From an uncultured bacterium (GTDB lineage Bacteria > Fidelibacterota > Marinisomatia > SCGC-AAA003-L08 > D37C17): 39,294 nt of DNA. Every line of letters begins with the position of its first letter. Position 1 is the stretch's first letter. Under the pieces are notes generated by a model. That model had not been told where the DNA came from. It did not search any database and was given only the letters and a program-made list of their open reading frames with translations. The translations under genes were made by a program, and so were the position numbers. Positions 3,433 to 38,807 of this stretch are shown piece by piece. The stretch spans positions 1 to 39,294 of the forward strand of contig CAZYFB010000002.1 of the NCBI GenBank assembly GCA_964646655.1, written 5' to 3'.

Positions 3433-3434
3433 AA

Positions 3435-3896: not shown

Positions 3897-3903
3897 TTAC
3901 AGT

Positions 3904-6449: not shown

Positions 6450-6467
6450 AAATTAAATGAGAATTAA

Positions 6468-7505: not shown

Positions 7506-7509
7506 TAAT

Positions 7510-8109: not shown

Positions 8110-8122
8110 CAATGGATTATTA

Positions 8123-8704: not shown

Positions 8705-8707
8705 ATT

Positions 8708-9211: not shown

Positions 9212-9218
9212 TAAATAT

Positions 9219-13242: not shown

Positions 13243-13272
13243 GAAAAAGATTAATTAGGAGTAATAATAATC

Positions 13273-16223: not shown

Positions 16224-16229
16224 ATTAAT

Positions 16230-16982
16230 ATGATAGTTTTTTTATTTGCTATCTTAGGCTTAGTGTTTGGTAGTTTTTTAAATGTTATTATTCATAGGCT
16301 TCCAAAAGAAGAGTCTATAATTTACCCTCCGTCTCAATGTCCATATTGTAAAACTAATATAGAATGGTATCACAATATTCCAGTATTATCATTTATTAAA
16401 TTAAAGGGTAAGTCATTTTGCTGTAATCAGAAAATTTCATTAACATATCCAATTGTAGAGATTACTTCAATGTTATTATGGATATGGGCTTATAATTATA
16501 TGCATGGAACTACTAATCAAATTTTTTTTATTATTATTGCATCATGTCTTTTATCAATATTCTTTACAGATCTAAATCAATTTTTTATACCTTTAGAATT
16601 AAATATATTAATTTTTTTATGTGCATTATTAAATAATCTTTTAATTGATCAAATTGATTTGAAATTTCATTTTATTTCTATGATAAGTATTTCATTATAT
16701 TTTTTGATTATTATGCTATTAACCAGTTATTTACTTAAAAAAGATACAATGGGTTATGGTGATATTATTTTAATTTCATCAGTTTCATTTTGGGTTGGGT
16801 TTATAGATTCACTTTTAATTATTTTTTTTGCTTCTTTGTTTTCAATTATTCATTGGTTAATTTTGAGAGTTACAAGCAATAAGAAGGATATTATTTTACC
16901 TTTTGGATCTACTATTGCATTAGCAGCATTAATTATTTTTATTTTAAAAAATACATTACATATTGAAACAAATTTTTTTTAG
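16230..16982 (+). CDS. pilD: Prepilin peptidase / N-methyltransferase PilD (peptidase A24)
   Basis: N-terminal FGSFLNVIIHRLP, Cys cluster CPYCKTNI...CCNQKIS, and catalytic Asp contexts FFTDLNQFFIP and GYGDIILI. Confidence 0.85.
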   Translation: MIVFLFAILGLVFGSFLNVIIHRLPKEESIIYPPSQCPYCKTNIEWYHNIPVLSFIKLKGKSFCCNQKISLTYPIVEITSMLLWIWAYNYMHGTTNQIFFIIIASCLLSIFFTDLNQFFIPLELNILIFLCALLNNLLIDQIDLKFHFISMISISLYFLIIMLLTSYLLKKDTMGYGDIILISSVSFWVGFIDSLLIIFFASLFSIIHWLILRVTSNKKDIILPFGSTIALAALIIFILKNTLHIETNFF

Positions 16983-21018: not shown

Positions 21019-21104
21019 TTTACATTTTGAAACAAAATTTAATGCTGAATTTAAGTCTATAATTGTTATAATACATTTCGTAAAATATAGTTTATGCTAT
21101 TAAC

Positions 21105-25832: not shown

Positions 25833-26295
25833 AAACGCACAATTTATAGGGATAGCAATAGGAATTGGTATGTGCCTAAGTTTGTTTTTGACTGAAACTT
25901 TAGGAGTTACAGCTGGTGGTGTAATTGTTCCAGGATATATTGCTCTTTACTTGCATGAGCCTTTTAAAATTGTTATCACATTTTCAATAGCAATCTTAGT
26001 TGTAATTATAATAAAAATTCTATCAAATTTTATATTTGTATACGGTAAAAGAAGGTTAGTGCTTAGCTTAATGTTAGGTTTTATATTTGGTTATATTTCA
26101 AAAATATACTTTAATCCAGAAATTTATACCTTTATGAGTTATGATATTTCATCTATTGGTAATATCATCCCCGGATTAATTGCAAGTTGGATGGATAGGC
26201 AGGGTGTATCAAAAACAATTAGTGTAATCCTTATAATTGCAATTTCAACTAGACTTATTATGATTATTATTAGCGGAGGTACTTTTTATGTTTAG
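25825..26295 (+). CDS. pgsC: Poly-gamma-glutamate synthetase membrane subunit PgsC/CapC
   Basis: About 150 aa, four TM segments. LTETLGVTAGGVIVPGYIALYL matches the PgsC N-terminal signature (..AEKTGIVPAGLVVPGYLGLVF in Bacillus). The TTG start overlaps the pgsB stop by 8 nt. Confidence 0.75.
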   Translation: MIENAQFIGIAIGIGMCLSLFLTETLGVTAGGVIVPGYIALYLHEPFKIVITFSIAILVVIIIKILSNFIFVYGKRRLVLSLMLGFIFGYISKIYFNPEIYTFMSYDISSIGNIIPGLIASWMDRQGVSKTISVILIIAISTRLIMIIISGGTFYV

Positions 26296-27658
26296 ACCTT
26301 CAATCCAAAAAACTAGAGTTTTAGTTATTTTAGCCTTGATTAATATTTTGATTTATTACTTTGTATCTACTTCAGTCGTTACTTTTAAATCAGTAGATTA
26401 TGAATTAAAAATAGATTCAGCTAAAAAAATGGAAAATGCACTTACTATTTTAAAAAAATATGGTAGAAAATACCCGTTTTTATCAAGAGACCCATTTGAT
26501 ACGCGATTAGTTTTTTTAAATACTGAAACTAGTCCTTTATTAACAGATATTGGTAAGTATGAAGCTAAATCAACCGTATTAAAACCTAATTTTTCAGCGC
26601 TGATTATTGATCATTTTTCTAGGGCAGGACTATCTAAAGGTGATACAATTGCTATTTCTATGACAGGTTCTATGCCTGGTGCTAATATTGCGGTTTTGAT
26701 GGCTTGTGAGGCTATGGAATTAGAATATGTGTCTATTTCTTCTCTTGGAGCATCTAGTTGGGGAGCTACAGATATGAATTTGTCTTGGCCAAAAATGGAA
26801 AAAATTCTATTTGATAACCAAATTATAGGAAAGGTAAGTGATAAATTTACATATGGTGGTGGAGCTGACTATTTAAAAAAAGGAACTAGGTATAGAAAAA
26901 TATATGGTGGTGATTTTAAAAGATTAAGGATTGACAGTTTAATGGTATCTCTATATCCAAATAAATCTATGGATGATTTATTTATATTGCATGGTCTATC
27001 AAAGGATAAAGTATTAAATGATTCTACAGGAATGATACTTAAAACAAGCATTAACCAAAGAATATCTTTTTATGAAAAGTCTTGTTCTGATGGTACATTG
27101 TCTTGCTTTGATGCTTACGTTAATGTTGGAGGGGGCGTTGCTAGCTTCGGGTACAAAGGAAAAAATAAACTTAAAGATAATTATGGATATGTTCAGGTAA
27201 AAGATGTTTTAGATGCACTTCCTTCTTTTGAAAAAAGAAATAGTGTTATGATAAAATTTGGAGAATCAAATATCCCACTTATTAATATTACTGAAATTGA
27301 AAAATTAATTAAGGGGTCAGATATAGGGTATTTTAATAGTTTTGTTATTGATGAACTCGATCAAGTTGGAAATGGAAAATGGGATAGAGATGGATTCAAA
27401 TGGAGTCAGAATTTAAGTGGTTCTCCAGAAATGTTTACGGATATAAACGAAAATGGAATATGGGATGATGGTGAAGAATTTACAGATCAAGATGGTCTTG
27501 TAGACATTGGAAAAGGTAACTTATATAACACACAGAAGTTTAACATGTTGATAGTATGGTTTGGTTTAATGATATGTTTAGGAAGTACTATATATATTGG
27601 ATTTATTAGTTATCAGCAAATTAGTAGACAAATGAGAAGTTATGATCCAAACAGTTAA
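26288..27658 (+). CDS. Bitopic (N- and C-terminal TM) periplasm-facing protein occupying the slot where PgsA/CapA normally sits; not CapA-like; possibly the 'poly-gamma-glutamate system protein' type
   Basis: The ATG overlaps the pgsC stop by 8 nt. TMs are VLVILALINILIYYFVSTSVV and LIVWFGLMICLGSTIYIGFISY. No CapA metallophosphatase motifs (GD.M.GR, NHA.D, GHH.H). An acidic NGxWDxGEEFxD segment lies near the C-terminus. Confidence 0.4.
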   Translation: MFRPSIQKTRVLVILALINILIYYFVSTSVVTFKSVDYELKIDSAKKMENALTILKKYGRKYPFLSRDPFDTRLVFLNTETSPLLTDIGKYEAKSTVLKPNFSALIIDHFSRAGLSKGDTIAISMTGSMPGANIAVLMACEAMELEYVSISSLGASSWGATDMNLSWPKMEKILFDNQIIGKVSDKFTYGGGADYLKKGTRYRKIYGGDFKRLRIDSLMVSLYPNKSMDDLFILHGLSKDKVLNDSTGMILKTSINQRISFYEKSCSDGTLSCFDAYVNVGGGVASFGYKGKNKLKDNYGYVQVKDVLDALPSFEKRNSVMIKFGESNIPLINITEIEKLIKGSDIGYFNSFVIDELDQVGNGKWDRDGFKWSQNLSGSPEMFTDINENGIWDDGEEFTDQDGLVDIGKGNLYNTQKFNMLIVWFGLMICLGSTIYIGFISYQQISRQMRSYDPNS

Positions 27659-28691
27659 TCTTGTTTTTATCCTTTTATTAACCATAACTTTTTCTAAAGA
27701 TATTCCAATTTCTTATAAGTACGAGCTTTCATTTGGATATGATGATAATTTTATGCGATTTTCAGATAATGAGCTAAATACCTTTCATAACACTGATGAA
27801 TCCAATAATGACTATCTTGGAGACTCAAAAACATATGATTCTGGTATAGTAGGCTCATCTTTACAGATTAAATTATCCCCCAAAATTAAAAATAAAATAA
27901 AATCTAATATAATTACTAAAATTAAGTACAATTATTATAGTAGTTCAAATCAAAAATCATATGGTTCTTTTTTATTTAGATATGAATTAAAATTAGCATC
28001 TTATAGATGGTTAAAGTTTTCGTACTCACTTCTACCGGATTATTATTTAAGAACATATATTGATAGAGATTTAACTCCTCTTGAAAGATTTCCATGTACA
28101 TTTTCAAATGAAACTATTTATTTATCCTACTCACATCAGTTTTTATTTAATAAAACCTGGATTGACTATCGTTTAGTATTAAATAACCAGTTTTATAATA
28201 AATATTTTACAGAGTTTGATAGTAAAATTTCAGGTTTAGAGGTTACTATTAAATCAAAGAAAGTTAAAAATTATTATGCTTCACTTGCGTTTTTATATTA
28301 CAAAGCTGAAAATATTTCATACAACCCTACAGAGATGTTAGAATCTTCAAAGATGGATCGTTCTTATCTAAGAAATGGAATAAAGATACACCTTAAAAGA
28401 ACTCTTAAAAAATCGTTTATTAATAGTTTGGGTTTAAAATTTTATTTTAATCAAAGATTTTATGATTTAAACTCGTGGTCTTATAATCAAGATAATTGGA
28501 AAACTTATTCTGATTTTGATATAAGATTTGAAATGTCTAAAAAACTATCATCAAATACTAGTTTGGATTTTTTATTTAGACATTTTAATAGATCTGTTGA
28601 TTCTTCTGATAGCAGTGAGATTGAATGGGTAGAAGATTATAAAAATCACAACAGAAATGAAATGTGGTTAAAATTTGTTTATATTTTTTAA
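27642..28691 (+). CDS. Predicted outer-membrane beta-barrel protein, translationally coupled to the pgs module
   Basis: Signal peptide MIQTVNLVFILLLTITFSKD. Alternating amphipathic strands (SLAFLYYKAE, GLKFYFNQRFY, DIRFEMSKKL, SLDFLFRHFN). C-terminal MWLKFVYIF ends in Phe (OMP beta-signal). The start overlaps the upstream gene by 17 nt. Confidence 0.55.
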   Translation: MIQTVNLVFILLLTITFSKDIPISYKYELSFGYDDNFMRFSDNELNTFHNTDESNNDYLGDSKTYDSGIVGSSLQIKLSPKIKNKIKSNIITKIKYNYYSSSNQKSYGSFLFRYELKLASYRWLKFSYSLLPDYYLRTYIDRDLTPLERFPCTFSNETIYLSYSHQFLFNKTWIDYRLVLNNQFYNKYFTEFDSKISGLEVTIKSKKVKNYYASLAFLYYKAENISYNPTEMLESSKMDRSYLRNGIKIHLKRTLKKSFINSLGLKFYFNQRFYDLNSWSYNQDNWKTYSDFDIRFEMSKKLSSNTSLDFLFRHFNRSVDSSDSSEIEWVEDYKNHNRNEMWLKFVYIF

Positions 28692-28709
28692 ATTTAGACT
28701 GAGGTAATT

Positions 28710-29951
28710 ATGAAAATTTACATATTATTAATATCTTTATTCTTTTTTGCATGTATTGAACAGGTTGATTCAGAACAAAACAATATTGCTCAATTGGTCA
28801 AATATATAGATACATATGGAGAAGCTATGGATTTAGATTTGACAGACACTCATATGGTGGTTGCTGCTAATTATCAAGGGTTCATTGTTTATGATATAAT
28901 TAGAGATAATTTAGGTAATGTTTCAGATCTTGATTCAGTTTTTAATGATTCAATTTTAGATGATTCTATGGGAGACAATCGAGCACAAGAGGTTGTTATA
29001 TCTAAAAATCATAACATTGCATTTATTACTGATATATATGATAGAATATGGTTATACAAGCTTGATGGAGGATCTAATCAATACGTAGATTCCTACCTGC
29101 AGGATTGTTATGGAGGAACTTGGTTAAGTACTACCATTGATGAACAGACTGATATGAATCAAATTAATGTATTCTCTCTAGTAAAACATTCTTCATCTGA
29201 GAGTGATGACGAAGGTACTGTTGGGGATTTTGATGAGTATTCTACATCTGTTGTATGGAAAGGTTTAATAGATATTAATTCAGGTGATTTATTTCCAGAA
29301 CAAAATTCAGCACCTGCATGTGAATTTTCTTATAATTTTGGTATTTTACCTGAAACAATACACTATAATAATGGTTTATTGGCTATAAGTAATGGTGAAT
29401 TAGGCATGAAAGTTTTATCACAAATAAATCAATCTTCATGCTTTGATAGTGACTCTTTTGATTTAATTGAAGATTTTAATCCATCAGGTAATATTGATAT
29501 AGATAGAATTGCTTGTGAAAATTCTATATTTGATTATTATAATCCAGGTTTTGGAGGAATTTTTGAGCCCAAAGGAGGATTTCATCCTCAAGTTTATTCA
29601 TCTTTTGATTTACCTGGAGAGGTTAATGCTGTTTATGTTAAGGATTTAGTTTTATTTTCAGGTTTATCAACTAGTAATGGTTGTTACATATCTTTACTAG
29701 GGGATAATGGGAATATATTAGAAAATTTATCAGTTGCTAATGGATACACTATCAATGGTATTAGTGAAGATAATGGTATTTTGGCGCTATCAGCAGGTAG
29801 AGATGGTGTTTTACTTTATCAATGGAATGGAGATTTGAACATTAGTTATATGGGTCAAATTGAAACGCCATATTCAAATAAAGTAAAAGTTGATGGAAAT
29901 AATATTCTAATTTCAACTGAAGATGGTGTTTATATATATATTTTAAATTAA
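28710..29951 (+). CDS. Secreted/possibly lipidated beta-propeller-like protein with LVIVD-like repeats
   Basis: GAGGT RBS. Signal ending in Cys: KIYILLISLFFFAC. Repeating strings THMVVAANYQGFIVYDI, HNIAFITDIYDRIWLYKL, NGLLAISNGELGMKVL, NGILALSAGRDGVLLYQW and NNILISTEDGVYIYIL. Confidence 0.4.
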   Translation: MKIYILLISLFFFACIEQVDSEQNNIAQLVKYIDTYGEAMDLDLTDTHMVVAANYQGFIVYDIIRDNLGNVSDLDSVFNDSILDDSMGDNRAQEVVISKNHNIAFITDIYDRIWLYKLDGGSNQYVDSYLQDCYGGTWLSTTIDEQTDMNQINVFSLVKHSSSESDDEGTVGDFDEYSTSVVWKGLIDINSGDLFPEQNSAPACEFSYNFGILPETIHYNNGLLAISNGELGMKVLSQINQSSCFDSDSFDLIEDFNPSGNIDIDRIACENSIFDYYNPGFGGIFEPKGGFHPQVYSSFDLPGEVNAVYVKDLVLFSGLSTSNGCYISLLGDNGNILENLSVANGYTINGISEDNGILALSAGRDGVLLYQWNGDLNISYMGQIETPYSNKVKVDGNNILISTEDGVYIYILN

Positions 29952-32900
29952 ATGGGAGTAATAATGGTATCTAGATTAATATTTATAATTTTGTTATTAA
30001 ATACAGTTTTTTCACAATTTGATTGGATAGATGGCGGAGCACCAATTCGTCAAGGTCAGCACATAGAATGGCAAAGAACTGCAGGTTCAGGTGATACAGG
30101 AGAAATAATTTTTGCATGGTCAGACACTAGAGATAGTATGAGAGATGTTTATGTTCAAAAAATTGATACTCAGGGAAATAAATTATGGGGTGAAAAAGGC
30201 ATAGCTGTAACAACAGCTTATGGTAGACAAGAAGATCCATTATTAGTTGGAGATGATAATGGAGGTGCTTTTATAATCTGGATAGATTATAGAAATGAAC
30301 CAGATACTAAAGGTGATGTATATGCTCAGCATGTATTGTCAGATGGTTCTTTAGTATGGTCACTTGAAGGACAACCTATTGTTGTTAAAGAAGGTTCCCA
30401 AAGGAATCCAAATATGTGTAAAGATGGTAATGGTGGTGCATATATTATATGGAAAGATTTTACAGTTGGTCAGTATGAGCATGTTTATGCAACTCATATT
30501 TCAGCTGATGACCAGATAATTAAACCTGGTGAAGGTGTTCCTATTATGACTAATGATTCTCATCATAATGGAATCAGTTTAGAAATTGCTGGACTTGGAG
30601 AAGCTGCTATGGCTTGGGTAGATGATAGAAATGGAAACCTAGATATTTTTGGGCAAAGAATGTTAGCAGACCATGAAAATGATACAATTAATACACTTTG
30701 GAGTACTGTGGAAGAGGGTGGAAAAGCTATTTGTGATGCTGAAGGTGATCAAAATTATGCAAAAATAACTTATGCTTCAGGATGTTGTGGGACAGAAGGT
30801 ATTACAGTTGCTACCTGGCAGGATGATAGGAATCAGAATTTTGATATTTATATGCAATATTTATGGGTTAATGGAGATTCATTTTTTCAATCTTACCCTC
30901 AGGGTTTACCACTTACTGACGGTTTAACCTCTTCACAAACAAAGCCTAGATTAAAGGCTGATGATTCTGGCGCATATGTAGTATGGTACAGCGACCAAAA
31001 TGGTAACAGCGACATATATGCTCAAAAAATATTAGCATCTCAAGATGATCCTATACAATGGAGTGAAAACGGTTTAGCAGTATGTACTGCTCAGGACGCC
31101 CAAACAGGAGCGCGTTTATCAGTTAGTGGTAATGGTGGAGTTTACTTTACATGGCAAGATGATAGAAATGGTGGTGATGAGGCAGATGTTTATATTCAGC
31201 ATGTTAGCTCTGATAATATATTAACATTACCTGATAATGGATTAGTAATATCAGATGAATCATTAATTCAAAAAAGTCCAGTGGTCAGAAATGATGGAAA
31301 TGGTAATGCTTTTGTATTATGGGAGGATGGAAGAAGAGGTAGTGGTGCAATTTTTACTCAACATTTAAATTCCAATGGACTATTAACTTTATCTGAAAAT
31401 GGTATGGAAATTTATTATGGCGTTGATGGTAAATCTGATAATATTAAGTCAGAAAAAATTAATGATACAGATGTTCTTTTATATTGGGAAGATCGTGAAA
31501 ATGGTGTTAATTCTACCTACAATTTTGGAAAAATAATTTCAAATGATTATGGGTATACTTATGAGAACGCTATTTCAGTGCCGAACGCTTCCTTAAGTGA
31601 AAATCCAGCTCAATTAAATGCAGAAGTAAAAAAAGTAGGAAACAATCTATTTATGGGGTTTTTACAAGACAATTTTCAAGCTGGTGTAGACCCTTTTGAA
31701 GGTTATTCTCAATATTTCCAAATACTTGATCTGCCAGATTTAAATCTTGCAGGTGATGTAAACGGTACTTGGTTAAATCCAACAGATTTTTTCCAATATG
31801 ATTTTATAAGTGAGTTTGGAAGAGATTTAGATTTACTAGTAAATGATGATAATACATTATTTTATTTTACTTCATTGAGTGAATTTTTTGCTGGCCCTGA
31901 TATCTATGTTAGAAAAGTTGGTATTGATGGTCAAATCTATTGGGATGCACCAAAAAATTTAACTAATGATCCAGCATCAGATAATTTTGTTAGAAATGTT
32001 TTCAATACTCCAGATGGTGGTGCATTTGTGGTTTTTGATAAAATAGGATCAGGGAATTATGGTAATATTACAATTATGAATCAAGAAGGTGAGAATTTAG
32101 AAGGTTTTCCAAAAAGAGTTTGTGATATTGACAGTAATCAATTTATTGAAGATGCTGTTGATGTTGGGATAGGTATTTTTATTATTTGGAGAGATAATAG
32201 GCAGGATGGTGGTTCTGATATATATGGTCAACTTTTTGATTATAGTGGAAATCCTCAAGGTGCTACAGATGGTATAGCAATTGCAGAATATGATAATGAT
32301 CAGACAAATTCTAATATTACATTTCATGACACTTTAAATGAAGTACTTGTATGTTGGGAGGATTATTTAAGTGGCACCGATTATGACTTAGCATGTAGCA
32401 CTGTCAATCTTTCCAATTTAGAAGTTAATAATTCACTTGGTTTTCCAACTTATACAATTGCTGAAGGTCAAGGCGACCAGATAAATGTTGATACATACAA
32501 AGCTGAAAATGGTAATTATATGATTGTATGGGAAGATTCAAGAAATAATAGCGATGAAAATCTTCAAACACATACAGATATATATTATCAAGAAATCAAT
32601 ATTCAAGGTGAATTTATTTATAATGATAACGGTATCGCTGTTTGCGATTCTTATCATATACAAACTGAACCACAGATTTCAATGTATTCAAAATCAGATT
32701 CGGAGCAGTCATATATTATTTATTGGACTGATTTAAGAAGTACAGGTAAAGATTTATTATACAATATTTATGCGCAATCAATTAGCCATGACTATCAATT
32801 AAGCATTGAGGATAGTTTCCCTGTAGAGCTCAGCCTTAATTCTATATATCCAAATCCATTTAATCCAGAAGTAAATATAAATTTTTATAATCCTAGATCT

Positions 32901-33086
32901 GAAAAAGTATCAATTAATATTTACGATTTAAATGGAAAGTTAATTGAAAAAATTTATGATAATCAGTTAAATAGTGGCAGTCATACATTTAGCTGGAATG
33001 CTCAAAAATTTTCTAGTGGTATTTATATTATAAGTCTTGAGTCTGATAATTCAGTTATAAGTTCTAAAGTATCTTTAATGAAATGA
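29952..33086 (+). CDS. Large secreted repeat (propeller-like) protein with about 14-16 'WxDxR...D(I/V)YxQ' units and a T9SS C-terminal sorting domain
   Basis: Repeat examples are listed in the findings. CTD: IYPNPFNPEVNINFYN...ISIYDLNGKLIEKI...SGIYIISLESDNSVISSKVSLMK. An alternative start ATG at 29964 is preceded by GGGAG. The gene ends in TGA (33084..33086). Confidence 0.7.
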   Translation: MGVIMVSRLIFIILLLNTVFSQFDWIDGGAPIRQGQHIEWQRTAGSGDTGEIIFAWSDTRDSMRDVYVQKIDTQGNKLWGEKGIAVTTAYGRQEDPLLVGDDNGGAFIIWIDYRNEPDTKGDVYAQHVLSDGSLVWSLEGQPIVVKEGSQRNPNMCKDGNGGAYIIWKDFTVGQYEHVYATHISADDQIIKPGEGVPIMTNDSHHNGISLEIAGLGEAAMAWVDDRNGNLDIFGQRMLADHENDTINTLWSTVEEGGKAICDAEGDQNYAKITYASGCCGTEGITVATWQDDRNQNFDIYMQYLWVNGDSFFQSYPQGLPLTDGLTSSQTKPRLKADDSGAYVVWYSDQNGNSDIYAQKILASQDDPIQWSENGLAVCTAQDAQTGARLSVSGNGGVYFTWQDDRNGGDEADVYIQHVSSDNILTLPDNGLVISDESLIQKSPVVRNDGNGNAFVLWEDGRRGSGAIFTQHLNSNGLLTLSENGMEIYYGVDGKSDNIKSEKINDTDVLLYWEDRENGVNSTYNFGKIISNDYGYTYENAISVPNASLSENPAQLNAEVKKVGNNLFMGFLQDNFQAGVDPFEGYSQYFQILDLPDLNLAGDVNGTWLNPTDFFQYDFISEFGRDLDLLVNDDNTLFYFTSLSEFFAGPDIYVRKVGIDGQIYWDAPKNLTNDPASDNFVRNVFNTPDGGAFVVFDKIGSGNYGNITIMNQEGENLEGFPKRVCDIDSNQFIEDAVDVGIGIFIIWRDNRQDGGSDIYGQLFDYSGNPQGATDGIAIAEYDNDQTNSNITFHDTLNEVLVCWEDYLSGTDYDLACSTVNLSNLEVNNSLGFPTYTIAEGQGDQINVDTYKAENGNYMIVWEDSRNNSDENLQTHTDIYYQEINIQGEFIYNDNGIAVCDSYHIQTEPQISMYSKSDSEQSYIIYWTDLRSTGKDLLYNIYAQSISHDYQLSIEDSFPVELSLNSIYPNPFNPEVNINFYNPRSEKVSINIYDLNGKLIEKIYDNQLNSGSHTFSWNAQKFSSGIYIISLESDNSVISSKVSLMK
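32830..33083 (+). other. T9SS (Por) C-terminal sorting domain
   Basis: YPNPFNP ... IYDLNG ... SGIYII motif set typical of TIGR04183-type CTDs. Confidence 0.7.
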
Positions 33087-35329
33087 TAATTTTAATTTTA
33101 CTTATTATAACCTCATTTGTTTTACCTTTATCAGAAAGATATCATACATTTTATGAAGTTGAGCAGCAACTTTTAGATTGGGATGAGCAATTTTCTAATG
33201 ATGATAATCCTTGGCCTGCACAGTACCCTGGTAGTGGTATCATTTATCAGTTATCACAAATTGGTGTATCTTCTCATGACAATTTACCTATATATGCAGT
33301 AAAATTATCTTATAATGCCAATGAAGATAACGATGAGGCGAGGGTTTTAATTTTAGGGCAATGCCATGCAGAAGAAATCTATGGTGTAGAGATTGCTATG
33401 GAAATGATTGATTGGTTACTTCATCCAAATGCATTTTATCCAGTTAATTATTTAGATAGAAAAATGGCATTAGAAAATACAGAGTTATGGATTATTCCAA
33501 CGCATAATCCGGAAGGTTTACTTACAGTTCATGGTGACACATTAAATGGAGAATGGATTCAAGATGAATGGTATAGAAAAAATAAAACAGATATTAATGC
33601 TAATGGTATCTTTGATTATGTTTATGGTCCTGGAAATGATTCAGATGGTGTTGATTTAAATAGGAATTATGATTTTAATTGGATATTCGGTGATGATAAG
33701 TATGAATTAGATTATGGCTGCGCTGGTAATCCATCATATATATCAAATTATGACTATTATAGAGGAGAAGAACCCTTTTCTGAGCTAGAAATTCAAGCTA
33801 TTAGAGATTTTGCTATAGAAAAGCAATTCTTATTATCTATAGCATATCATAGTTCTAGATCAGGTTGCGTTTCTGAAAAGGTAATATATCCATGGAAATG
33901 GACAGAAACCAAAGAGAGTCCAGATTTTGAGGTGATTGATAAGCTGGGTAGAGATATAGCTTCATTTATACCAACTCAAGATGGCATTACTACATATTTG
34001 CCATCAGGTAGTGTATCAAGAAGAGGTAATGCACATGATTGGTTTTATAGTCAAACTGGTTGTATTCAGTATTTAATAGAAGCTGGAACCTCAAATATTC
34101 AAACCAATGATGATCAAATTATAGAGGATACAATTGATAGAAATTTAATTGGTGCATTTCATTTAATAAATAGAGCATCTGGAAATAATTTTGGTGAAAT
34201 AGGTGCAGATAAATACCTTATAAATGGTTTAGTTATGGATTCTAATTCAAGTGAAATATTAAATGCAGAAGTTACTATATTAGAGATGGATGGGCCTATG
34301 TTAAAACCTAGAACTACTGATCAGTATGGCAGATATAGAAGATTGCTTTATCCTGGAACATTTACTTTGCAAGTTAAATCAAAAGGATATCAAACATATT
34401 TAGAATCAGATATTGTTCCAAGTGCATCTTCATTTATAGAAAAAGATATTTACTTAGAGTCATTACAAAGTCATGTAGTTGAATTTAATTTTGATTATCC
34501 TGATTATTATAACAATACAACCCCATTAATATTAACTTTAGAAAGTGAATGGGATGTAGAAGAGTTTGAAATATTTTCAAATAATTTTGAGTTAGATTTA
34601 TATGAGGGTTCTTATAATATTTCTATTGAAGGAAAAGAATCCAACCATATTGTACCTATTTTAGATAATTTTATTGTTACTGATAATGTAGAAAAAAATT
34701 ATTCCTTAGGATGGGCAAAGTTAATTTATTTAGGAATAAATTCTAATGATTGGATTATCGAATCAGGAGATTGGTATTTTAATAATGATTTATTTTCTCA
34801 GTCTTCATCATATTACAGTAGTGATTTTTTTGGAAGTATGTTTTTAGATTCATCTTTTACTGCTAGCAAGATTGTTGCTTCATTTGATATGAAATACGAA
34901 TACGAGTGGGATAATGATTATATTCAGCTTTCAATTTCTAGTGATAATGCTGATATTTCTAATGTTAAAACATTAACTGGTCACAATTACAAATCATTTC
35001 AGAAAGAAATGGTTGCTTATTCAAATAGTCAGGAGTTAAATGATTTATTGGTTAGTATTTCAATGAACACAGATGAATCATTATACTATAGAGGAAGTGT
35101 TATTAAAGATTTAAAAATAGTATCAGACTCAGGTAATCAAGCTTGTAATTTTGGAGATTCAAATTTTGATGGGCTAATTAACATTAATGATATTATGATA
35201 ATATTAAACTTCATTCTTCAAACTGATATAGCTGAGGGTTATTATAAGTGTGTTAGCGATTTGAATCAAGATAGTGGAATTAATATTTTAGATATTTCAA
35301 TTATGATAAACTTTATTTTAGGGGATTAA
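33083..35329 (+). CDS. M14-family zinc carboxypeptidase with CarboxypepD_reg-like beta-sandwich and C-terminal dockerin-type repeats
   Basis: Zn motif GQCHAEEIYG (HxxE at 33365..33376), IPTHNPEG, VDLNRNYDFNW, and SIAYHSSRSG (third Zn ligand context). LINGLVMDSNSSEILNAEVTIL...TTDQYGRYRRLLYPGTFTLQVKSKGYQ. Dockerin GDSNFDGLININDIMIILNFIL / SDLNQDSGINILDISIMINFIL. The ATGA start overlaps the upstream stop. Confidence 0.8.
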   Translation: MIILILLIITSFVLPLSERYHTFYEVEQQLLDWDEQFSNDDNPWPAQYPGSGIIYQLSQIGVSSHDNLPIYAVKLSYNANEDNDEARVLILGQCHAEEIYGVEIAMEMIDWLLHPNAFYPVNYLDRKMALENTELWIIPTHNPEGLLTVHGDTLNGEWIQDEWYRKNKTDINANGIFDYVYGPGNDSDGVDLNRNYDFNWIFGDDKYELDYGCAGNPSYISNYDYYRGEEPFSELEIQAIRDFAIEKQFLLSIAYHSSRSGCVSEKVIYPWKWTETKESPDFEVIDKLGRDIASFIPTQDGITTYLPSGSVSRRGNAHDWFYSQTGCIQYLIEAGTSNIQTNDDQIIEDTIDRNLIGAFHLINRASGNNFGEIGADKYLINGLVMDSNSSEILNAEVTILEMDGPMLKPRTTDQYGRYRRLLYPGTFTLQVKSKGYQTYLESDIVPSASSFIEKDIYLESLQSHVVEFNFDYPDYYNNTTPLILTLESEWDVEEFEIFSNNFELDLYEGSYNISIEGKESNHIVPILDNFIVTDNVEKNYSLGWAKLIYLGINSNDWIIESGDWYFNNDLFSQSSSYYSSDFFGSMFLDSSFTASKIVASFDMKYEYEWDNDYIQLSISSDNADISNVKTLTGHNYKSFQKEMVAYSNSQELNDLLVSISMNTDESLYYRGSVIKDLKIVSDSGNQACNFGDSNFDGLININDIMIILNFILQTDIAEGYYKCVSDLNQDSGINILDISIMINFILGD
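35153..35326 (+). other. Dockerin type I-like duplicated repeat (C-terminus of the M14 peptidase)
   Basis: DSNFDGLININDIMIILNFIL ... DLNQDSGINILDISIMINFIL. Confidence 0.6.
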
Positions 35330-35330
35330 T

Positions 35331-37913
35331 ATGTTTAAAAAACTTACATTATTATTTATTATGTCTTTACTGATTTCAGGTGATATGTTAAAATTACCTT
35401 TATCTCATAAAGGTATAGATAGTAGACCTGCTGAGTATGAAAGAGGAATATATTTAATTGTATTAGCTTCACAAAGCTTAGAGAATTGGTTAGGTGATCA
35501 ATCTAATGGTGAAGATTTTGTTAAATTTAAAAAAACCCAAGGATATGATGTTGATGTAATTTCCTTAGATGAGCTGGGTATTGATTCAAATATTTCTTTA
35601 AAAGGATATTTACAAACATATAAAAATAATAATCCAATGCTTGAGTACGTGCTACTTGTTGGAGATTGGAATGGAGCATATTCTGTTCCAACATTTACAA
35701 TTCCATCTTATAATGAAGAAGAATTAGATGTTACTGACTATACATATACTTACATTGGAGACAATGTTGAGAGTCCAAGATTTTTTATTGGTAGATGGCC
35801 AGTTAGGCAAATACAAGATATTTTAATATTAAAAGCTAAAACAATTGAGCATACAAAATTAGAACAAGGTACAAACTTAAATAGATTTGATGATGCGTTA
35901 ATTGTTGCTGGTAATTTTAAGGATGGTCAAGGTGTTCAACCTTGGGATTGGCCAGTTACTCCGAGGTGGACATCATTATGGCTTCAAGATGAGTTATATG
36001 GGTTTGGGTACGAAAATGTTGATACAGTTTTTTATCATGCTCAAAATTATGAAAATGGTGCTAGTAATCCTATGATAGCAAATTCATGGAATTCAGGGAT
36101 TGGAATAGTTAACTACAGAGGTTGGGGTGATGCAAACGGTTGGCATAAACCTTTATTTCATAGAGAGGAAGTTGAACAGTTGAATAATGGTTGGGATTTG
36201 CCAATTGTACTTAGTTTCGTATGTAATACAGGTGATTTTGGTAATGATTATTCGGGCGTTGGTTTAGATAAATGTTTTGGAGAAACTTTAGTCACTGCTG
36301 GTAGCACTACAAATCCAAAAGGTGCGGTTGCTATGGTTGGGCCATCAGATTTAGATACAGATACAAGATTTAATAATGTTATTTGTGGTGCTATGTGGGA
36401 TGATATATTAGAGTTAAGAAAAACTGAACTAGCACCAGCTCTACATACTGGAAAAGATTCTGTTAGAACTGAATTTAGTGGCTTGGTTATAAATAATACA
36501 AACATACCTGATTTTTACTATCATATTTATGGCGTATTAGGTGACCCAAGTATTCCGTTAAGATTAACCAATCCAACAAATTTGAATATTGAAGGTAATC
36601 TAGATCTAACTGAATCATATGTTTCACTTAAAGTTATGGATACATTTGGAAATTCAGTTAAAGATGTAGTTGCAGCTTTATTGTTTGGTGATCAATTAGT
36701 AGGTAAAGATTTATCAAATCAAAATGGTTGGATTGATATAGATTTAAATGTTGATGAGATACCTGTAGGCTCAGAATTGGTTTTATATTTAAATCACCCC
36801 AATCACTTTCAAGAAAAACTTGACATTGTTTTTGAAAGTGATGCAGGTTCAAATTTTGAAGAGCATGTTTATGAGGTGACACCAGAGCCTGTTGCTGATT
36901 ATATTTATAATATTTCTTTAGATGATGGTGTACCATGGGAAGAAGCTTCTGTATCAGGTACAAATTTATGTTTAACTGATGATACAGTTACTGAAATTGA
37001 CCTACCATTTACCTTTAACTTTTACGGAGAAGCATATAGCTCACTTACTGTTTCTTCAAATGGATGGGCATCATTTGAAAAATGTGATATACCATATTTT
37101 TGGAATTTTTCAATACCATTTCCATTGGGTCCATCTGCTATGTTAGCTCCTTTTATGGATGATTTAGATGATAATGGAAAGGAACCTTTTGATGATTTAA
37201 ATGGAAATTGTACTCATGATGAAGGAGAGTGGTTTCAGGACAGAAATGATAATGGTTATTGGGATCAAGGTGAAGATTTTGATGTATATTCCATGAATGA
37301 TATTAATAATGATAGATTTATAATTCAGTGGCAAAATGTATCTAATGGAGAAGATGACGAAAATTGCCCTGATTGTGTTAAAAATACATTTCAATTAATG
37401 CTTTATAATCAAGAGGTGCATCAAAACACAGTTAATCAGGGAGATATAGTTTTTGTGTATCAAGAAACTCATGATATTGATGAAAATGGAAATTTTTCAA
37501 CTATTGGCATAGAATCTCCTGATCAAAACTTTGGCTCTCAAGTTGTTTTTAGTGATGCTGAGTCAGATATAACGCCTGTTTTAAATGATGGATATTCTAT
37601 AAGATTTACTGCAAATAGTAACTCTCTAGATATTAATGAGAATCAGCCTATTGAACATTCTTTATTAAAAACTTATCCTAATCCATTTAATCCAAGCTTA
37701 AATATTGAGTATACAATGGAAAAAGCATCTAGTATAACCATATCAATTTATGATATTAATGGAAGATTAGTAGAGTCAATTTTAGATGCATACCAATCTG
37801 CAGGCACTCATAAAATTAAATGGAATGCACAAGAAATATCTACAGGAATTTATATTGTTAAATTAAAGCAAGATCAAAATATTTTAACGCAAAGAGTAGT
37901 TTTATTAAAGTAA
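35331..37913 (+). CDS. Third C25-like protein: no propeptide domain, NIDO-like module with an acidic insert, T9SS C-terminal sorting domain
   Basis: C25-like core (YVLLVGDWNG, FFIGRWPV, VNYRGWGDANGW, SFVCNTGDF, NPKGAVAMVGPS, GDPSIPL). IDLPFTFNFYGEAYSSLTVSSNGWASF. CTD YPNPFNPSLNIEYTM...ISIYDINGRLV...TGIYIVKLKQDQNILTQRVVLLK. Confidence 0.7.
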   Translation: MFKKLTLLFIMSLLISGDMLKLPLSHKGIDSRPAEYERGIYLIVLASQSLENWLGDQSNGEDFVKFKKTQGYDVDVISLDELGIDSNISLKGYLQTYKNNNPMLEYVLLVGDWNGAYSVPTFTIPSYNEEELDVTDYTYTYIGDNVESPRFFIGRWPVRQIQDILILKAKTIEHTKLEQGTNLNRFDDALIVAGNFKDGQGVQPWDWPVTPRWTSLWLQDELYGFGYENVDTVFYHAQNYENGASNPMIANSWNSGIGIVNYRGWGDANGWHKPLFHREEVEQLNNGWDLPIVLSFVCNTGDFGNDYSGVGLDKCFGETLVTAGSTTNPKGAVAMVGPSDLDTDTRFNNVICGAMWDDILELRKTELAPALHTGKDSVRTEFSGLVINNTNIPDFYYHIYGVLGDPSIPLRLTNPTNLNIEGNLDLTESYVSLKVMDTFGNSVKDVVAALLFGDQLVGKDLSNQNGWIDIDLNVDEIPVGSELVLYLNHPNHFQEKLDIVFESDAGSNFEEHVYEVTPEPVADYIYNISLDDGVPWEEASVSGTNLCLTDDTVTEIDLPFTFNFYGEAYSSLTVSSNGWASFEKCDIPYFWNFSIPFPLGPSAMLAPFMDDLDDNGKEPFDDLNGNCTHDEGEWFQDRNDNGYWDQGEDFDVYSMNDINNDRFIIQWQNVSNGEDDENCPDCVKNTFQLMLYNQEVHQNTVNQGDIVFVYQETHDIDENGNFSTIGIESPDQNFGSQVVFSDAESDITPVLNDGYSIRFTANSNSLDINENQPIEHSLLKTYPNPFNPSLNIEYTMEKASSITISIYDINGRLVESILDAYQSAGTHKIKWNAQEISTGIYIVKLKQDQNILTQRVVLLK
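37657..37910 (+). other. T9SS (Por) C-terminal sorting domain
   Basis: Same motif set as 32830..33083. Confidence 0.7.
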
Positions 37914-38252
37914 AAACTCTTTAATCAATTCGGGTGGCCTTGCGATTATAGCTTTATTTTCATTTATAATAATAGGTCTTTGAATTATTTTTGGGTGCAT
38001 AATTATAAGCTCTAAAAGTTTTTTGTGCTCATTAATATTTTTAAAGTCTGGATTATCTTTAAAAACTTTATCATTAAATCTAATAAAATCATGTGCTTTT
38101 AGGTTTAGTTTGATTGAAATATCTTTGAGCTCTTTTATTGTAAAACCTGTTTTCAAATATTCTATAATTTTGCAATCAATTTTCAATTCATTTAAAATCT
38201 CAACGGATTTTCTACTTTTACTTCATTGTGGGTTGTGGTACAATATAATCAT
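37905..38252 (-). CDS. ArsC-family (glutaredoxin-fold) reductase with in-frame TGA (38225..38223) at the catalytic Cys position; candidate selenoprotein (115 aa including Sec)
   Basis: AAGGA-N5-ATG (ATG at 38252..38250), then MIILYHNPQ-TGA-SKSRKSVEILNE, which continues in frame into track ORF 37905..38186. E. coli-type ArsC/YfgD proteins read (I/L)YHNPxC(G/S)(T/K)SR. The C-terminal HPKIIQRPIIINENKAIIARPPE aligns with ArsC HPILINRPIVVTPLGTRLCRPSE. Confidence 0.65.
38194..38211 (-). other. Candidate bacterial SECIS-like hairpin 11 nt 3' of the in-frame UGA
   Basis: The minus-strand RNA reads UGA-AGUAAAAGUAG-AAAAUC-CGUUGA-GAUUUU: a 6-bp stem with a 6-nt loop containing G and U. The AU-rich stem is weak, so this is only suggestive. 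Confidence 0.3.
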
Positions 38253-38342
38253 ATTTATCCTTATAATTAAAAAAATTAAGTTTAAAAGGTTTAAACATAA
38301 AAAAATAATTGTTTTTAATGTTTTAACTTAATAAAATAAGGT
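38253..38342. promoter_or_regulatory. Divergent intergenic region between the ArsC-family gene and the lrp-like gene; probable divergent promoters
   Basis: 90-bp AT-rich spacer between divergent starts. It contains the RBS for the minus-strand gene (AAGGA) and the palindrome GTTTAAAC. No specific promoter boxes are assigned. Confidence 0.3.
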
Positions 38343-38807
38343 ATGAATAAAAATATTAATTTTATTAAAATAGATAAAATAGATCAAAAAATAATATCAA
38401 TTTTAAAAGTTAATGCTAGAGAATCTGTAAGTAATATTTCTGAATCTGTTAATTTATCAATACCAGCTACTAGTGATAGAATTAAAAAATTAGAAGATTT
38501 TAAAATTATTAAAGGTTATTATGCAGATATTGATTCTAGAAAAATTGGATTAAACCTGTCTGCTTTAATAACTGTAATTTCTGAATCTTCTTCTAATTAT
38601 GAGAAGATTATTAAATTTGCAAATCAATCAAATGAAATTGTTGAATGTTACGCAACAACAGGTAGAGGCTCACATATTTTAATTATAGAAACAGAAAATA
38701 CAGAGAGTTTAGAAAAATTATTAAGAAAAATACAAACATGGCCCAATGTAATAAGAACAGAAACTCAAATTATATTATCTAATAATAAAACTTTATCGCA
38801 CTACTAA
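38343..38807 (+). CDS. Lrp/AsnC-family transcriptional regulator
   Basis: N-terminal HTH (IDKIDQKIISILKVNARESVSNISESVNLSIPATSDRIKKLEDFKIIKGY) followed by an AsnC/RAM-type ligand domain (LSALITVISE...ECYATTGRGSHILIIE...IRTETQIIL). 154 aa. Confidence 0.85.
   Translation: MNKNINFIKIDKIDQKIISILKVNARESVSNISESVNLSIPATSDRIKKLEDFKIIKGYYADIDSRKIGLNLSALITVISESSSNYEKIIKFANQSNEIVECYATTGRGSHILIIETENTESLEKLLRKIQTWPNVIRTETQIILSNNKTLSHY

What the first reader, a model, noticed from the sequence alone, without database searches (positions are those of the whole stretch)
37905..38252. In-frame TGA exactly at the catalytic-Cys position of an ArsC-family reductase: candidate selenoprotein missed by the ORF track
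The ORF track begins this minus-strand gene at a TTG (38186), which gives a 93-aa protein without the ArsC N-terminus. Reading the same frame further 5' gives an AAGGA RBS, 5 nt, an ATG (38252..38250) and then M-I-I-L-Y-H-N-P-Q-[TGA 38225..38223]-S-K-S-R-K-S-V-E-I-L-N-E, which joins the called ORF.

E. coli-type ArsC/YfgD proteins start ...(I/L)YHNPxC(G/S)(T/K)SR..., and that Cys (Cys12 of R773 ArsC) is the catalytic nucleophile. The TGA therefore substitutes precisely for the redox Cys codon, the classic Cys/Sec exchange seen in thiol oxidoreductases.

TGA is a real stop elsewhere in this window (pgsB 25830..25832; 33084..33086), which argues against genome-wide recoding. Eleven nt 3' of the UGA lies a hairpin, AAAAUC-CGUUGA-GAUUUU (38211..38194), with G/U in the loop. 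This is roughly where bacterial SECIS elements sit, but the stem is short and AU-rich.

I recall that marine-metagenome surveys predicted ArsC-like Sec proteins. I cannot verify that here, so novelty is uncertain. The annotation correction itself is solid.
Basis: partly seen in the sequence, partly recalled or inferred. Interest (0 to 1): 0.75.

Follow-up and report, generated by a model that had tools for sequence, protein, structure and literature searches.

The report
Selenocysteine arsenate reductase gene, mis-called short
This is a small arsenate-reductase-type gene from an uncultured marine bacterium whose catalytic cysteine codon is replaced by a UGA that almost certainly encodes selenocysteine; the gene family was already predicted from ocean metagenomes in 2005, so the find is real but not new.

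Summary
On the minus strand an AAGGA ribosome-binding site, an ATG (38252) and nine codons lead to an in-frame TGA (38225..38223). The frame then runs on through the called 93-aa ORF, giving a 115-codon ArsC-family gene.

The TGA sits exactly at Cys12 of R773 ArsC, and the three catalytic arginines are kept.

- **TGA conserved:** it is present in 65 distinct marine metagenome versions (37-100% protein identity) and in six independent assemblies of this same gene.
- **Cys counterparts:** more distant homologs, and two syntenic orthologs, carry TGT/TGC instead.
- **Hairpin constrained:** Its stem codons are nevertheless frozen at synonymous sites in all Sec forms (GAG 65/65 against 15.5% elsewhere). 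That constraint is gone in the Cys orthologs.
- **No reassignment:** the window shows no sign of genome-wide TGA recoding.

The host is a SAR406/Marinimicrobia-type bacterium. Sec machinery could not be checked.

The family ("arsenate reductase, UxxS") was published from the Sargasso Sea (2005) and GOS (2008) and is listed in current reviews. Verdict: a solid annotation correction and a member of a known predicted selenoprotein family.

The parts
37905..38252 (-). Full arsC-type coding sequence: 115 codons plus TAA stop (37907..37905), with Sec-UGA as codon 10. It replaces the 93-aa ORF called from TTG 38186.
   Evidence: sequence and translation; Pfam ArsC, residues 5-113; ungapped alignment to R773 ArsC 1I9D. 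dN/dS is about 0.17 downstream of the hairpin among 430 homolog pairs.
38258..38262 (-). Shine-Dalgarno-like AAGGA, 5 nt before the ATG at 38252..38250.
   Evidence: A similar AAAGGAG lies before the ATG in the 57%-identical homolog L081.
38223..38225 (-). In-frame TGA, predicted selenocysteine codon (U10), at the position of catalytic Cys12 of R773 ArsC. It is the first residue of the UxxS motif (U-S-K-S).
   Evidence: TGA in 65/65 distinct homologous genes. The gene is identical in 6 independent assemblies. TGT/TGC is found in syntenic orthologs L160/L161 and in 66 genome homologs.
38212..38222 (-). 11-nt purine-rich spacer AGUAAAAGUAG between the UGA and the hairpin. The Ser codons here are always AGY in Sec forms.
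   Evidence: Ser13 is AGY in 65/65 genes and every Ser at codon 11 is AGY (53 of 65 genes; the other 12 have Gly), although TCN makes up 63% of Ser codons elsewhere in the same genes.
38194..38211 (-). Putative minimal bacterial SECIS hairpin: 6-bp stem AAAAUC/GAUUUU with a 6-nt loop NGUKGA (CGUUGA here).
   Evidence: The RNAalifold consensus of 64 sequences is exactly this hairpin. Stem codons are invariant at synonymous sites (AGA 63/65, AAA 65/65, GAG 65/65, ATT 65/65, TTA 64/65). The only variable sites are loop nucleotides 1 and 4. The constraint is absent in Cys forms.
38343..38807 (+). Divergently transcribed Lrp/AsnC-type regulator, a conserved neighbour of the Sec-arsC gene.
   Evidence: Pfam. 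A homolog lies upstream and divergent in 45/45 metagenome loci that have at least 500 nt of upstream sequence.
35331..37913 (+). Convergent C25-family peptidase with a T9SS sorting tail. Its 3' end overlaps the arsC 3' end by 9 nt. It is a conserved neighbour and probably unrelated in function.

Best explanation
The locus encodes a 115-residue glutaredoxin-type (R773/YfgD-like) ArsC-family reductase. Its nucleophilic active-site residue is selenocysteine, encoded by UGA at codon 10.

Inferred mechanism:
1. Translation starts at ATG 38252.
2. At the UGA, a SelB·GTP·Sec-tRNASec complex is recruited by an 18-nt hairpin. The hairpin starts 11 nt downstream, inside the coding sequence for R-K-S-V-E-I-L, and has GU in its loop.
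3. Sec is inserted and translation continues to TAA 37905.

The selenolate would play the role of Cys12 in arsenate (or a related oxyanion or thiol substrate) reduction, helped by the conserved Arg58/Arg92/Arg105 triad.

The gene belongs to a SAR406/Marinimicrobia-type marine bacterium. It is a member of the already described, computationally predicted selenoprotein family 'arsenate reductase, UxxS'.

Shown here:
- the reading frame and family membership;
- the Sec/Cys column and conservation of the TGA;
- purifying selection on both sides of the TGA;
- RNA-level constraint on the hairpin.

Inferred only:
- Sec (rather than another residue) is inserted;
- SelB binds this hairpin;
- arsenate is the substrate.
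For: 1. **Frame and family.** Pfam ArsC E 6.9e-14. TIGR00014 arsC scores 102 bits. PDB hits are 3RDW/3F0I (E 5e-17 / 4e-16). The alignment to R773 ArsC 1I9D is ungapped and puts U10 on Cys12, with R58/R92/R105 on R60/R94/R107. Those arginines are invariant or nearly so in 42 homologs.

2. **Conserved TGA.** A protein search with Cys in the query returned dozens of 113-116-aa homologs (98% down to about 50% identity) with 'W' at residue 10. Their DNA has TGA there; 'W' is a code-4 gene-caller artefact. A metagenome scan found 68 contigs. All have a single in-frame TGA followed by an intact ORF of about 105 codons.

3. **Cys counterparts.** Homologs below about 50% identity have YHNPxC(S/G/R)KSR. 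The closest Cys forms, L160/L161, share the AsnC-arsC-C25 synteny, so they are orthologs.

4. **Both sides are translated.** dN/dS is about 0.17 downstream, with pS of 0.67. Upstream codons 4-8 keep the amino acid while the codon varies: TAC/TAT 33/32, CAC/CAT 33/32, and I/L/V at codon 4, which the search pattern did not constrain.

5. **Hairpin.**
   - Codon 18 is GAG in 65/65 genes, although GAG is only 15.5% of Glu codons elsewhere in the same genes.
   - ATT is 65/65 (49.6% elsewhere) and TTA is 64/65 (48.9% elsewhere).
   - In 27 other conserved columns the commonest codon reaches only 0.46-0.91.
   - The 65 genes form 16 clusters at 70% identity.
   - Syntenic Cys orthologs have GAA, ATT in place of GTK, and CGG AAG in one case. 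This breaks the C-G pair and removes the loop GU.

6. **Not an error, not a reassignment.** The gene is 348/348 nt identical in six assemblies from different samples. No other window gene has an in-frame TGA, two genes end in TGA, and the large ORFs use TGG for Trp 163 times.

7. **Literature.** 'Arsenate reductase, UXXS' had 14 sequences in the Sargasso Sea, with a predicted SECIS (PMC1088965). 'ArsC 1, pfam03960, UxxS' had 77 sequences in GOS (PMC2398784). Reviews PMC9312934 and PMC13188914 list the family under TIGR00014/COG1393.
Against: - No selA, selB, selD or tRNA-Sec was seen in the window, in about 59 kb of the same 141.6-kb contig, or in about 347 kb of related contigs. This is uninformative, but it is still an absence of positive evidence.
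- Three SAR406 single-cell genomes were classed as 'orphan SelD', meaning no SelA/SelB or selenoprotein genes were detected (PMC5029168).
- The hairpin is short and AU-rich: -1.3 kcal/mol for the 18 nt and -2.4 from the UGA at 37 C.
- Its fold is not better than shuffles in the single sequence, and it matches no Rfam family.
- The stem never varies, so there is no covariation support.
- TIGR00014 scores just under its trusted cut-off (102 against 106.05).
- No ars operon genes are nearby, so arsenate as the substrate is an inference from homology.
- No member of this selenoprotein family has been verified experimentally (PMC13188914 lists it among the computational predictions).
Confidence: 0.87

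Rival explanations
1. The conserved UGA is decoded, with the hairpin as stimulator, but not by the canonical SelA/SelB/tRNA-Sec route. Possibilities are insertion of Cys or another residue by a UGA-reading tRNA, or programmed read-through, in a lineage that has only an 'orphan' SelD.
For: SAR406 single-cell genomes were reported with SelD but no SelA/SelB or selenoprotein genes (PMC5029168). The hairpin is unusually small, AU-rich and invariant in sequence. No Sec machinery was seen in any DNA held here.
Against: Single-cell genomes are incomplete, and SelD itself signals selenium use. The 11-nt spacing, the GU in the loop and the replacement of a redox Cys are the classic bacterial Sec signature. 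The same family was accepted as a selenoprotein by the specialist groups (PMC1088965, PMC2398784). The syntenic Cys form loses the hairpin. That fits a costly Sec system better than simple read-through.
Confidence: 0.06
2. The gene is a pseudogene, or the TGA is a sequencing or assembly error for TGT/TGC.
For: A single in-frame stop in one sequence is what a nonsense mutation or an error looks like. The ORF finder truncates the gene.
Against: The gene, including the TGA, is identical in six independent assemblies. The TGA is kept in 65 distinct genes that have no other frame disruption. There is strong purifying selection on both sides.
Confidence: 0.01
3. The organism reads TGA as a sense codon genome-wide (code 4 Trp or code 25 Gly). 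The residue would then be Trp or Gly, as many database entries show ('W').
For: Dozens of catalogue proteins carry W at this position. The genome is 29.7% G+C, and TGA is the rarest stop codon (2 of 28).
Against: No other in-frame TGA occurs in about 13,000 codons of tightly packed genes, while TGG is used 163 times for Trp in the large ORFs. Two genes terminate at TGA, one of them 4 residues after a C-terminal T9SS sorting domain. Trp or Gly at the catalytic nucleophile position would inactivate the enzyme, yet the gene is under purifying selection.
Confidence: 0.01
4. Only the downstream ORF is made, from TTG 38186 or another internal start. The product would be an N-terminally truncated ArsC-like protein without the nucleophile, and the upstream nine codons would be untranslated leader.
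For: This is the mechanical ORF call and the form deposited in several catalogues (P0145, P0146, P0148).
Against: The ATG, the RBS and codons 4-8 upstream of the TGA are conserved as protein with free synonymous change. No Shine-Dalgarno sequence precedes TTG 38186, and that codon is not conserved as a start in homologs (codon 23 varies). A truncated protein would lack the His6, Asn7, Cys/Sec10 and Ser13 active-site loop.
Confidence: 0.02

Closest known systems
Predicted selenoprotein family 'Arsenate reductase (ArsC 1), UxxS motif' (Zhang, Fomenko & Gladyshev 2005, PMC1088965; Zhang & Gladyshev 2008, PMC2398784; listed in PMC9312934 and PMC13188914 with representative MBT3519430.1)
   Same: Same Pfam/COG/TIGR family (pfam03960, COG1393, TIGR00014). 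Same U-x-x-S motif (U-S-K-S), with Sec at the catalytic Cys position. Same habitat (open-ocean metagenomes). A SECIS-like stem-loop lies just downstream with G in the apical loop. Cys homologs are widespread.
   Different: Nothing essential. This report adds three points:
- These sequences form one syntenic lineage of SAR406/Marinimicrobia type (AsnC-arsC-C25 peptidase).
- The SECIS is an 18-nt hairpin whose sequence does not vary.
- Syntenic Cys orthologs have lost the hairpin.

I could not compare directly with the published representative sequences.
Glutaredoxin-coupled arsenate reductase ArsC of plasmid R773 / E. coli (PDB 1I9D, 1J9B) and YfgD-like 'putative arsenate reductases' (PDB 3RDW, 3F0I)
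   Same: Same fold family. The alignment is ungapped. The YHNPxC(G/S)xSR active-site loop is present, and Arg60/Arg94/Arg107 equivalents are conserved.
   Different: Sec replaces Cys12. Identity is only about 25-40%. There is no ars operon context (no arsR, arsB or ACR3 nearby). The score is just below the TIGR00014 equivalog cut-off. The physiological substrate is untested.
E. coli fdhF-type bacterial SECIS (SelB-binding hairpin)
   Same: It lies inside the coding region immediately 3' of the UGA. The minimal hairpin starts 11 nt after the UGA. G-U is conserved in the apical loop. (The spacing and the GU requirement in E. coli are recalled from the literature, not tested here.)
   Different: The stem is only 6 bp, five of them A-U/U-A. 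There is no bulged U. The loop is 6 nt. Predicted stability is very low at 37 C (-1.3 kcal/mol). No Rfam model matches.
'Arsenate reductase-like protein / ArsC 2', UxxC selenoprotein (cd03032, NF041106; PMC2398784, PMC13188914)
   Same: Also an ArsC/Spx-superfamily selenoprotein from marine metagenomes.
   Different: That family has a UxxC motif and is Spx-like. The window protein has UxxS and gave no NF041106 hit.

Membership tests
ArsC/Spx superfamily (Pfam PF03960) | Significant match to the family profile over the whole domain | tested here: met
   PF03960 E 6.9e-14, 52.4 bits against a cut-off of 24, residues 5-113, profile positions 1-79 of 79.
Glutaredoxin-coupled arsenate reductase (R773 ArsC type, TIGR00014) | Nucleophile at the Cys12 position in the YHNPxC loop | tested here: met
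   Ungapped alignment to 1I9D with a +2 offset. Codon 10 (TGA) aligns with Cys12 and is read as Sec.
Glutaredoxin-coupled arsenate reductase (R773 ArsC type, TIGR00014) | Arg60, Arg94 and Arg107 oxyanion-binding triad (roles of these residues recalled from the R773 ArsC literature) | tested here: met
   R58 and R92 are invariant and R105 is at least 90% conserved in 42 homologs. They align to R60/R94/R107.
Glutaredoxin-coupled arsenate reductase (R773 ArsC type, TIGR00014) | Score above the curated equivalog cut-off | tested here: not met
   102 bits against a cut-off of 106.05, with U replaced by C. This is a narrow miss, so the protein is ArsC-type but equivalog status is not certified.
Glutaredoxin-coupled arsenate reductase (R773 ArsC type, TIGR00014) | Arsenate reduction activity or an ars operon context | tested here: not met
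   No arsR, arsB or ACR3 in the window or its flanks. The neighbours are an AsnC regulator, glutamine synthetase and a C25 peptidase. Enzyme activity cannot be tested here.
Predicted selenoprotein family 'arsenate reductase, UxxS' | In-frame TGA aligned with a conserved Cys of homologs (Sec/Cys pair) | tested here: met
Predicted selenoprotein family 'arsenate reductase, UxxS' | [quoted passage not shown] | tested here: met
   65 distinct genes, 16 clusters at 70% identity. dN/dS is about 0.17 downstream, and upstream codons are conserved as protein.
Predicted selenoprotein family 'arsenate reductase, UxxS' | UxxS motif | tested here: met
   U10-S11-K12-S13. S13 is invariant.
Predicted selenoprotein family 'arsenate reductase, UxxS' | Sec-decoding machinery (selA, selB, selC, selD) in the same genome | not testable with these tools
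   Only about 59 kb of the source contig could be read, and no sel genes or tRNAs lie there. The literature gives SelD only for SAR406 single-cell genomes (PMC5029168).
Predicted selenoprotein family 'arsenate reductase, UxxS' | Selenium actually incorporated at the UGA | not testable with these tools
   Needs 75Se labelling or mass spectrometry.
Bacterial SECIS element | Stem-loop immediately 3' of the UGA, with the apical loop about 16-37 nt from the UGA and G in the first two loop positions (criteria recalled from the Zhang & Gladyshev bSECIS model) | tested here: met
   The hairpin starts 11 nt after the UGA and the loop 17 nt after it. The loop is NGUKGA with invariant G2 and U3.
Bacterial SECIS element | Thermodynamically stable structure, better than background | tested here: not met
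   -1.3 kcal/mol (18 nt) and -2.4 kcal/mol (from the UGA) at 37 C. The z-score against shuffles is +1.0. Stability is better at ocean temperatures (-5.3 and -7.05 kcal/mol at 20 and 10 C for the stretch from the UGA).
Bacterial SECIS element | Evolutionary support for the pairing | tested here: inconclusive
   No covariation is possible because the stem never varies. There is, however, strong synonymous-site constraint confined to the stem and to loop positions 2, 3, 5 and 6. That constraint is lost in Cys orthologs.
Bacterial SECIS element | Match to a curated RNA family | tested here: not met
   No Rfam hit at gathering threshold, and only chance-level hits at E up to 10.
Genome-wide TGA reassignment (codes 4 / 25) | In-frame TGA frequent in ordinary genes, and TGA not used as a stop | tested here: not met
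   One in-frame TGA in the whole window. Two genes end in TGA. TGG is used for Trp throughout.

The most novel reading that the evidence does not exclude
SAR406/Marinimicrobia genomes, previously classed as 'orphan SelD' organisms without selenoproteins, carry a lineage-wide Sec-type arsC. Its recoding signal is an unusually small, AU-rich, 18-nt hairpin that does not vary in sequence.

The most novel reading still open has two forms. Either this lineage decodes the UGA with a divergent or non-canonical apparatus (a SelB that recognises sequence rather than a stable helix, or a SelA/SelB-independent route using SelD). Or the hairpin defines a distinct minimal SECIS class.
Probability: 0.07. 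Interest if true: 0.7.

Novelty: already known. Interest (0 to 1): 0.25.

Why it matters
**Annotation.** The gene should be 115 codons with Sec at position 10. It is neither a 93-aa fragment nor a protein with Trp at residue 10. The same error affects dozens of entries in public protein catalogues.

**Biology.**
- The result ties a long-known but uncharacterised ocean selenoprotein family to the abundant, uncultured SAR406 lineage.
- It supplies a natural Sec/Cys ortholog pair, with and without the hairpin.
- It defines a very compact candidate SECIS that could be tested directly in a reporter.
- It suggests that the 'orphan SelD' label for SAR406 needs re-examination.

None of this changes current understanding of selenoproteins.

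Tried and rejected
- **Genome-collection scan** with the Sec-clade alignment.
- **Single-sequence folding** of 38150..38230. Not distinguishable from shuffles, so on its own it gives no support.
- **Rfam**, at gathering and permissive thresholds. No SECIS or other family matched.
- **tRNA-Sec search** with ARAGORN on the window and 74 related loci. No tRNA of any kind was found.
- **Motif scan** for SelD, SelA and SelB hallmarks in about 347 kb of related contigs. Nothing was found; this is uninformative.
- **Reading outward along the 141.6-kb contig**. I found a DsbD-like gene and a redoxin with an ordinary WCGPC motif. There were no sel genes and no second TGA-interrupted gene.
- **Promoter and terminator scan**. 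Not informative in DNA of 30% G+C.
- **Explanations considered and rejected:** pseudogene or sequencing error, genome-wide TGA reassignment, and a downstream-start truncated protein (see rival explanations).


Full report
**1. The observation**

Read on the minus strand, the region contains AAGGA (38262..38258), five bases, then ATG (38252..38250). The codons for M-I-I-L-Y-H-N-P-Q follow, then TGA (38225..38223). S-K-S-R-K-S-V-E-I-L-N-E comes next, in the frame of the 93-aa ORF that the mechanical ORF list starts at TTG 38186. That ORF ends at TAA 37907..37905.

The hairpin AAAAUC-CGUUGA-GAUUUU lies at 38211..38194, 11 nt after the UGA. The window has 29.7% G+C.

One of those TGA-terminated ORFs ends four residues after a T9SS C-terminal sorting domain, so TGA does terminate translation in this organism. 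No other gene in the tightly packed window has an in-frame TGA, and the large ORFs use TGG for Trp 163 times.

**2. What the protein is**

With the TGA read as Cys, the 115-aa product matches several references:
- Pfam ArsC (PF03960, E 6.9e-14).
- NCBIfam TIGR00014, 'arsenate reductase (glutaredoxin)', at 102 bits. This is just under the 106.05 cut-off.
- The YfgD-like putative arsenate reductases 3RDW and 3F0I among solved structures (E 5e-17 and 4e-16).
- R773 ArsC (1I9D). The alignment is ungapped with an offset of two residues.

The offset puts codon 10 on catalytic Cys12, and Arg58, Arg92 and Arg105 on Arg60, Arg94 and Arg107. These arginines, His6, Asn7 and Ser13 are invariant or nearly so in 42 homologs.

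**3. Is the TGA conserved?**

A database search used Cys in the query and so could not favour TGA. It returned dozens of full-length 113-116-aa homologs, from 98% down to about 50% identity, that all show 'W' at residue 10. It also returned a few versions truncated to 87-99 aa.

Fetching the DNA shows that 'W' is TGA translated under code 4 by metagenome gene callers. Homologs below about 50% identity, such as those of Legionella and Flavobacteriia, have Cys in YHNPxC(S/G/R)KSR.

A metagenome scan used a degenerate pattern containing the TGA. It found 68 marine contigs (Tara, JGI and others). Every one has a single in-frame TGA followed by an intact ArsC ORF of about 105 codons.

Together with the window these give 65 distinct complete genes. 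They share 37-100% pairwise protein identity and form 16 clusters at 70%.

The window's own gene, TGA included, is 348/348 nt identical in six assemblies from different samples. This excludes a sequencing error.

**4. Are both sides translated?**

Among 430 pairs of 60-92% protein identity, the region downstream of codon 21 has pN 0.23, pS 0.67 and dN/dS about 0.17.

Upstream of the TGA the amino acids stay constant while the codons change:
- TAC/TAT 33/32.
- CAC/CAT 33/32.
- Four Pro codons.
- Codon 4, which the search pattern did not constrain, is I/L/V encoded seven ways.

The ATG and a Shine-Dalgarno sequence are also kept in a 57%-identical homolog. So the ribosome reads through the UGA in frame. 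The pseudogene and downstream-start readings fail.

**5. The hairpin**

On the single sequence the fold is unconvincing: -4.1 kcal/mol for 81 nt, z = +1.0. For the 18-nt hairpin alone it is -1.3 kcal/mol at 37 C.

The comparative picture is different.
- RNAalifold on 64 distinct sequences returns exactly this hairpin and nothing else.
- The seven codons that contain it are almost frozen at the DNA level: AGA 63/65, AAA 65/65, TCN 65/65, GTK 65/65, GAG 65/65, ATT 65/65, TTA 64/65.
- In the rest of the same genes, GAG is only 15.5% of Glu codons, ATT 49.6% of Ile and TTA 48.9% of Leu.
- In 27 other columns with a conserved amino acid, the commonest codon reaches only 0.46-0.91.
- The only variable sites within the element are the third positions of codons 16 and 17, which are loop nucleotides 1 and 4.
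- The loop therefore reads NGUKGA with invariant G-U.

Cys-type homologs vary freely here in both amino acids and codons.

The best control comes from L160 and L161, the closest Cys forms. They have the same divergent AsnC regulator and convergent C25 peptidase, so they are orthologs. They carry TGT/TGC. Their hairpin codons have changed: GAA for GAG, ATT for GTK, and CGG AAG in one of them. This breaks the C-G pair and removes the loop GU.

This is strong evidence for an RNA element that is needed only when the codon is UGA. Because the stem never varies, there is no covariation evidence. The 11-nt spacer is also constrained: its Ser codons are always AGY. I cannot explain that.

**6. Organism and context**

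- PilB homologs at about 70% identity are named Candidatus Marinimicrobia.
- T9SS tails, C25 peptidases and about 30% G+C fit SAR406.
- All 45 metagenome loci with enough upstream sequence have the divergent AsnC homolog, and most have the C25 peptidase downstream. The Sec-arsC sequences retrieved here are therefore one vertically inherited, syntenic lineage.
- The window also carries a type IV pilus cluster, PgsB/CapC and an M14 peptidase.
- No ars operon genes are present, so arsenate as the substrate is inferred from homology only.

**7. Sec machinery**

This could not be tested. None of the following contains a tRNA or a recognisable sel gene:
- the window;
- about 59 kb of the same 141.6-kb contig;
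- about 347 kb of related contigs.

That is expected by chance.

The literature lists three SAR406 single-cell genomes as 'orphan SelD', meaning SelD was found without other selenium-trait genes or selenoprotein genes (PMC5029168). Those genomes are partial. The present locus shows that SAR406-type genomes do carry a Sec-type gene.

**8. Comparison with what is known**

- Zhang, Fomenko and Gladyshev (2005) described 'arsenate reductase' as a new selenoprotein family from the Sargasso Sea. It had 14 sequences, COG1393, a UXXS motif and a predicted SECIS with a conserved loop G (PMC1088965).
- Zhang and Gladyshev (2008) found 77 'ArsC 1, pfam03960, UxxS' sequences in GOS, and a separate UxxC 'ArsC 2' (PMC2398784).
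- The 2022 and 2026 reviews list the family under COG1393/TIGR00014 among computationally predicted selenoproteins whose functions are uncharacterised.

The window gene has U-S-K-S and the same family assignments, and it gave no hit to the UxxC model. It is therefore a member of the published UxxS family.

**9. Verdict**

The finding is a known kind of selenoprotein gene. I put Sec decoding through a minimal SECIS at about 0.87.

The remaining doubt is whether the decoding route is canonical in this lineage. The residual novel reading is a non-canonical or divergent decoding apparatus, or a distinct minimal SECIS class, in SAR406. I give it about 0.07.

Interest is low to moderate. The additions here are:
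- the assignment to a SAR406-type lineage;
- the conserved synteny;
- the sequence-invariant 18-nt hairpin;
- the natural Sec/Cys ortholog control;
- the widespread 'W' artefact in protein catalogues.

Noticed in passing
window 38223..38225 (-); proteins P0001-P0058 and others: Dozens of public catalogue proteins of this family carry a spurious Trp ('W') at residue 10, because metagenome gene callers applied code 4 to these AT-rich contigs. Other entries are truncated to 87-99 aa. Both are systematic mis-annotations of a Sec codon.
   Followed up: yes
window 38343..38807 (+) and 35331..37913 (+); loci L081-L153: The arrangement is conserved in 45/45 related metagenome loci with enough flank: divergent Lrp/AsnC regulator, then arsC(Sec), then a convergent C25 peptidase. 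The arsC and peptidase 3' ends overlap by 9 nt (37905..37913). In the flanks of the same contig, glutamine synthetase and a CitMHS-type symporter follow the regulator (L154).
   Followed up: partly
window 38212..38222 (-): The 11-nt spacer between the UGA and the hairpin (AGY AAA AGY AG) is also constrained. Ser codons at positions 11 and 13 are always AGY and never TCN in the 65 Sec genes. Cys-type homologs mix AGY and TCN at these positions. The reason is unknown.
   Followed up: partly
L160:522-875 and L161:457-804: Syntenic Cys-type (TGT/TGC) orthologs from similar AT-rich marine contigs keep nearly the same peptide (CSKSRKSIEIL) but have lost the hairpin-forming codons. They form a natural Sec-to-Cys (or Cys-to-Sec) switch pair.
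   Followed up: yes
literature (PMC5029168, Table 1) against this locus: SAR406 single-cell genomes are listed as 'orphan SelD' organisms without selenoprotein genes. This SAR406-type contig and its relatives carry a conserved Sec-type arsC. The orphan status may therefore reflect incomplete genomes and missed TGA genes.
   Followed up: partly
window 1958..16982 (+): A complete-looking type IV pilus / type II secretion-like cluster: pilins with N-methylation motifs, a PilT-like ATPase, PilM, a secretin, a PilB-like ATPase, PilC and a prepilin peptidase. Inside it, ORF 10678..13242 (854 aa) has no Pfam match and 27 Cys codons.
   Followed up: no
window 17035..24635, 29952..37913 (+): Three large C25 (gingipain-family) peptidases, an M14 carboxypeptidase with a dockerin domain, and several T9SS C-terminal sorting domains. 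This is a dense set of secreted proteases, consistent with a protein-degrading lifestyle.
   Followed up: no
window 24669..26295 (+): A PgsB-like Mur-ligase-domain protein followed by CapC (poly-gamma-glutamate synthesis), overlapping by 8 nt at a TGA stop. Three ORFs without Pfam matches follow (26288..29951).
   Followed up: no
L164:4447-7014 (left flank of the same 141.6-kb contig): A DsbD-like membrane thiol-disulfide transporter is immediately followed, in the same frame after a TAG, by a secreted redoxin with an ordinary WCGPC motif. These are thiol-redox genes of the kind that are often selenoproteins, but here they are Cys forms.
   Followed up: yes
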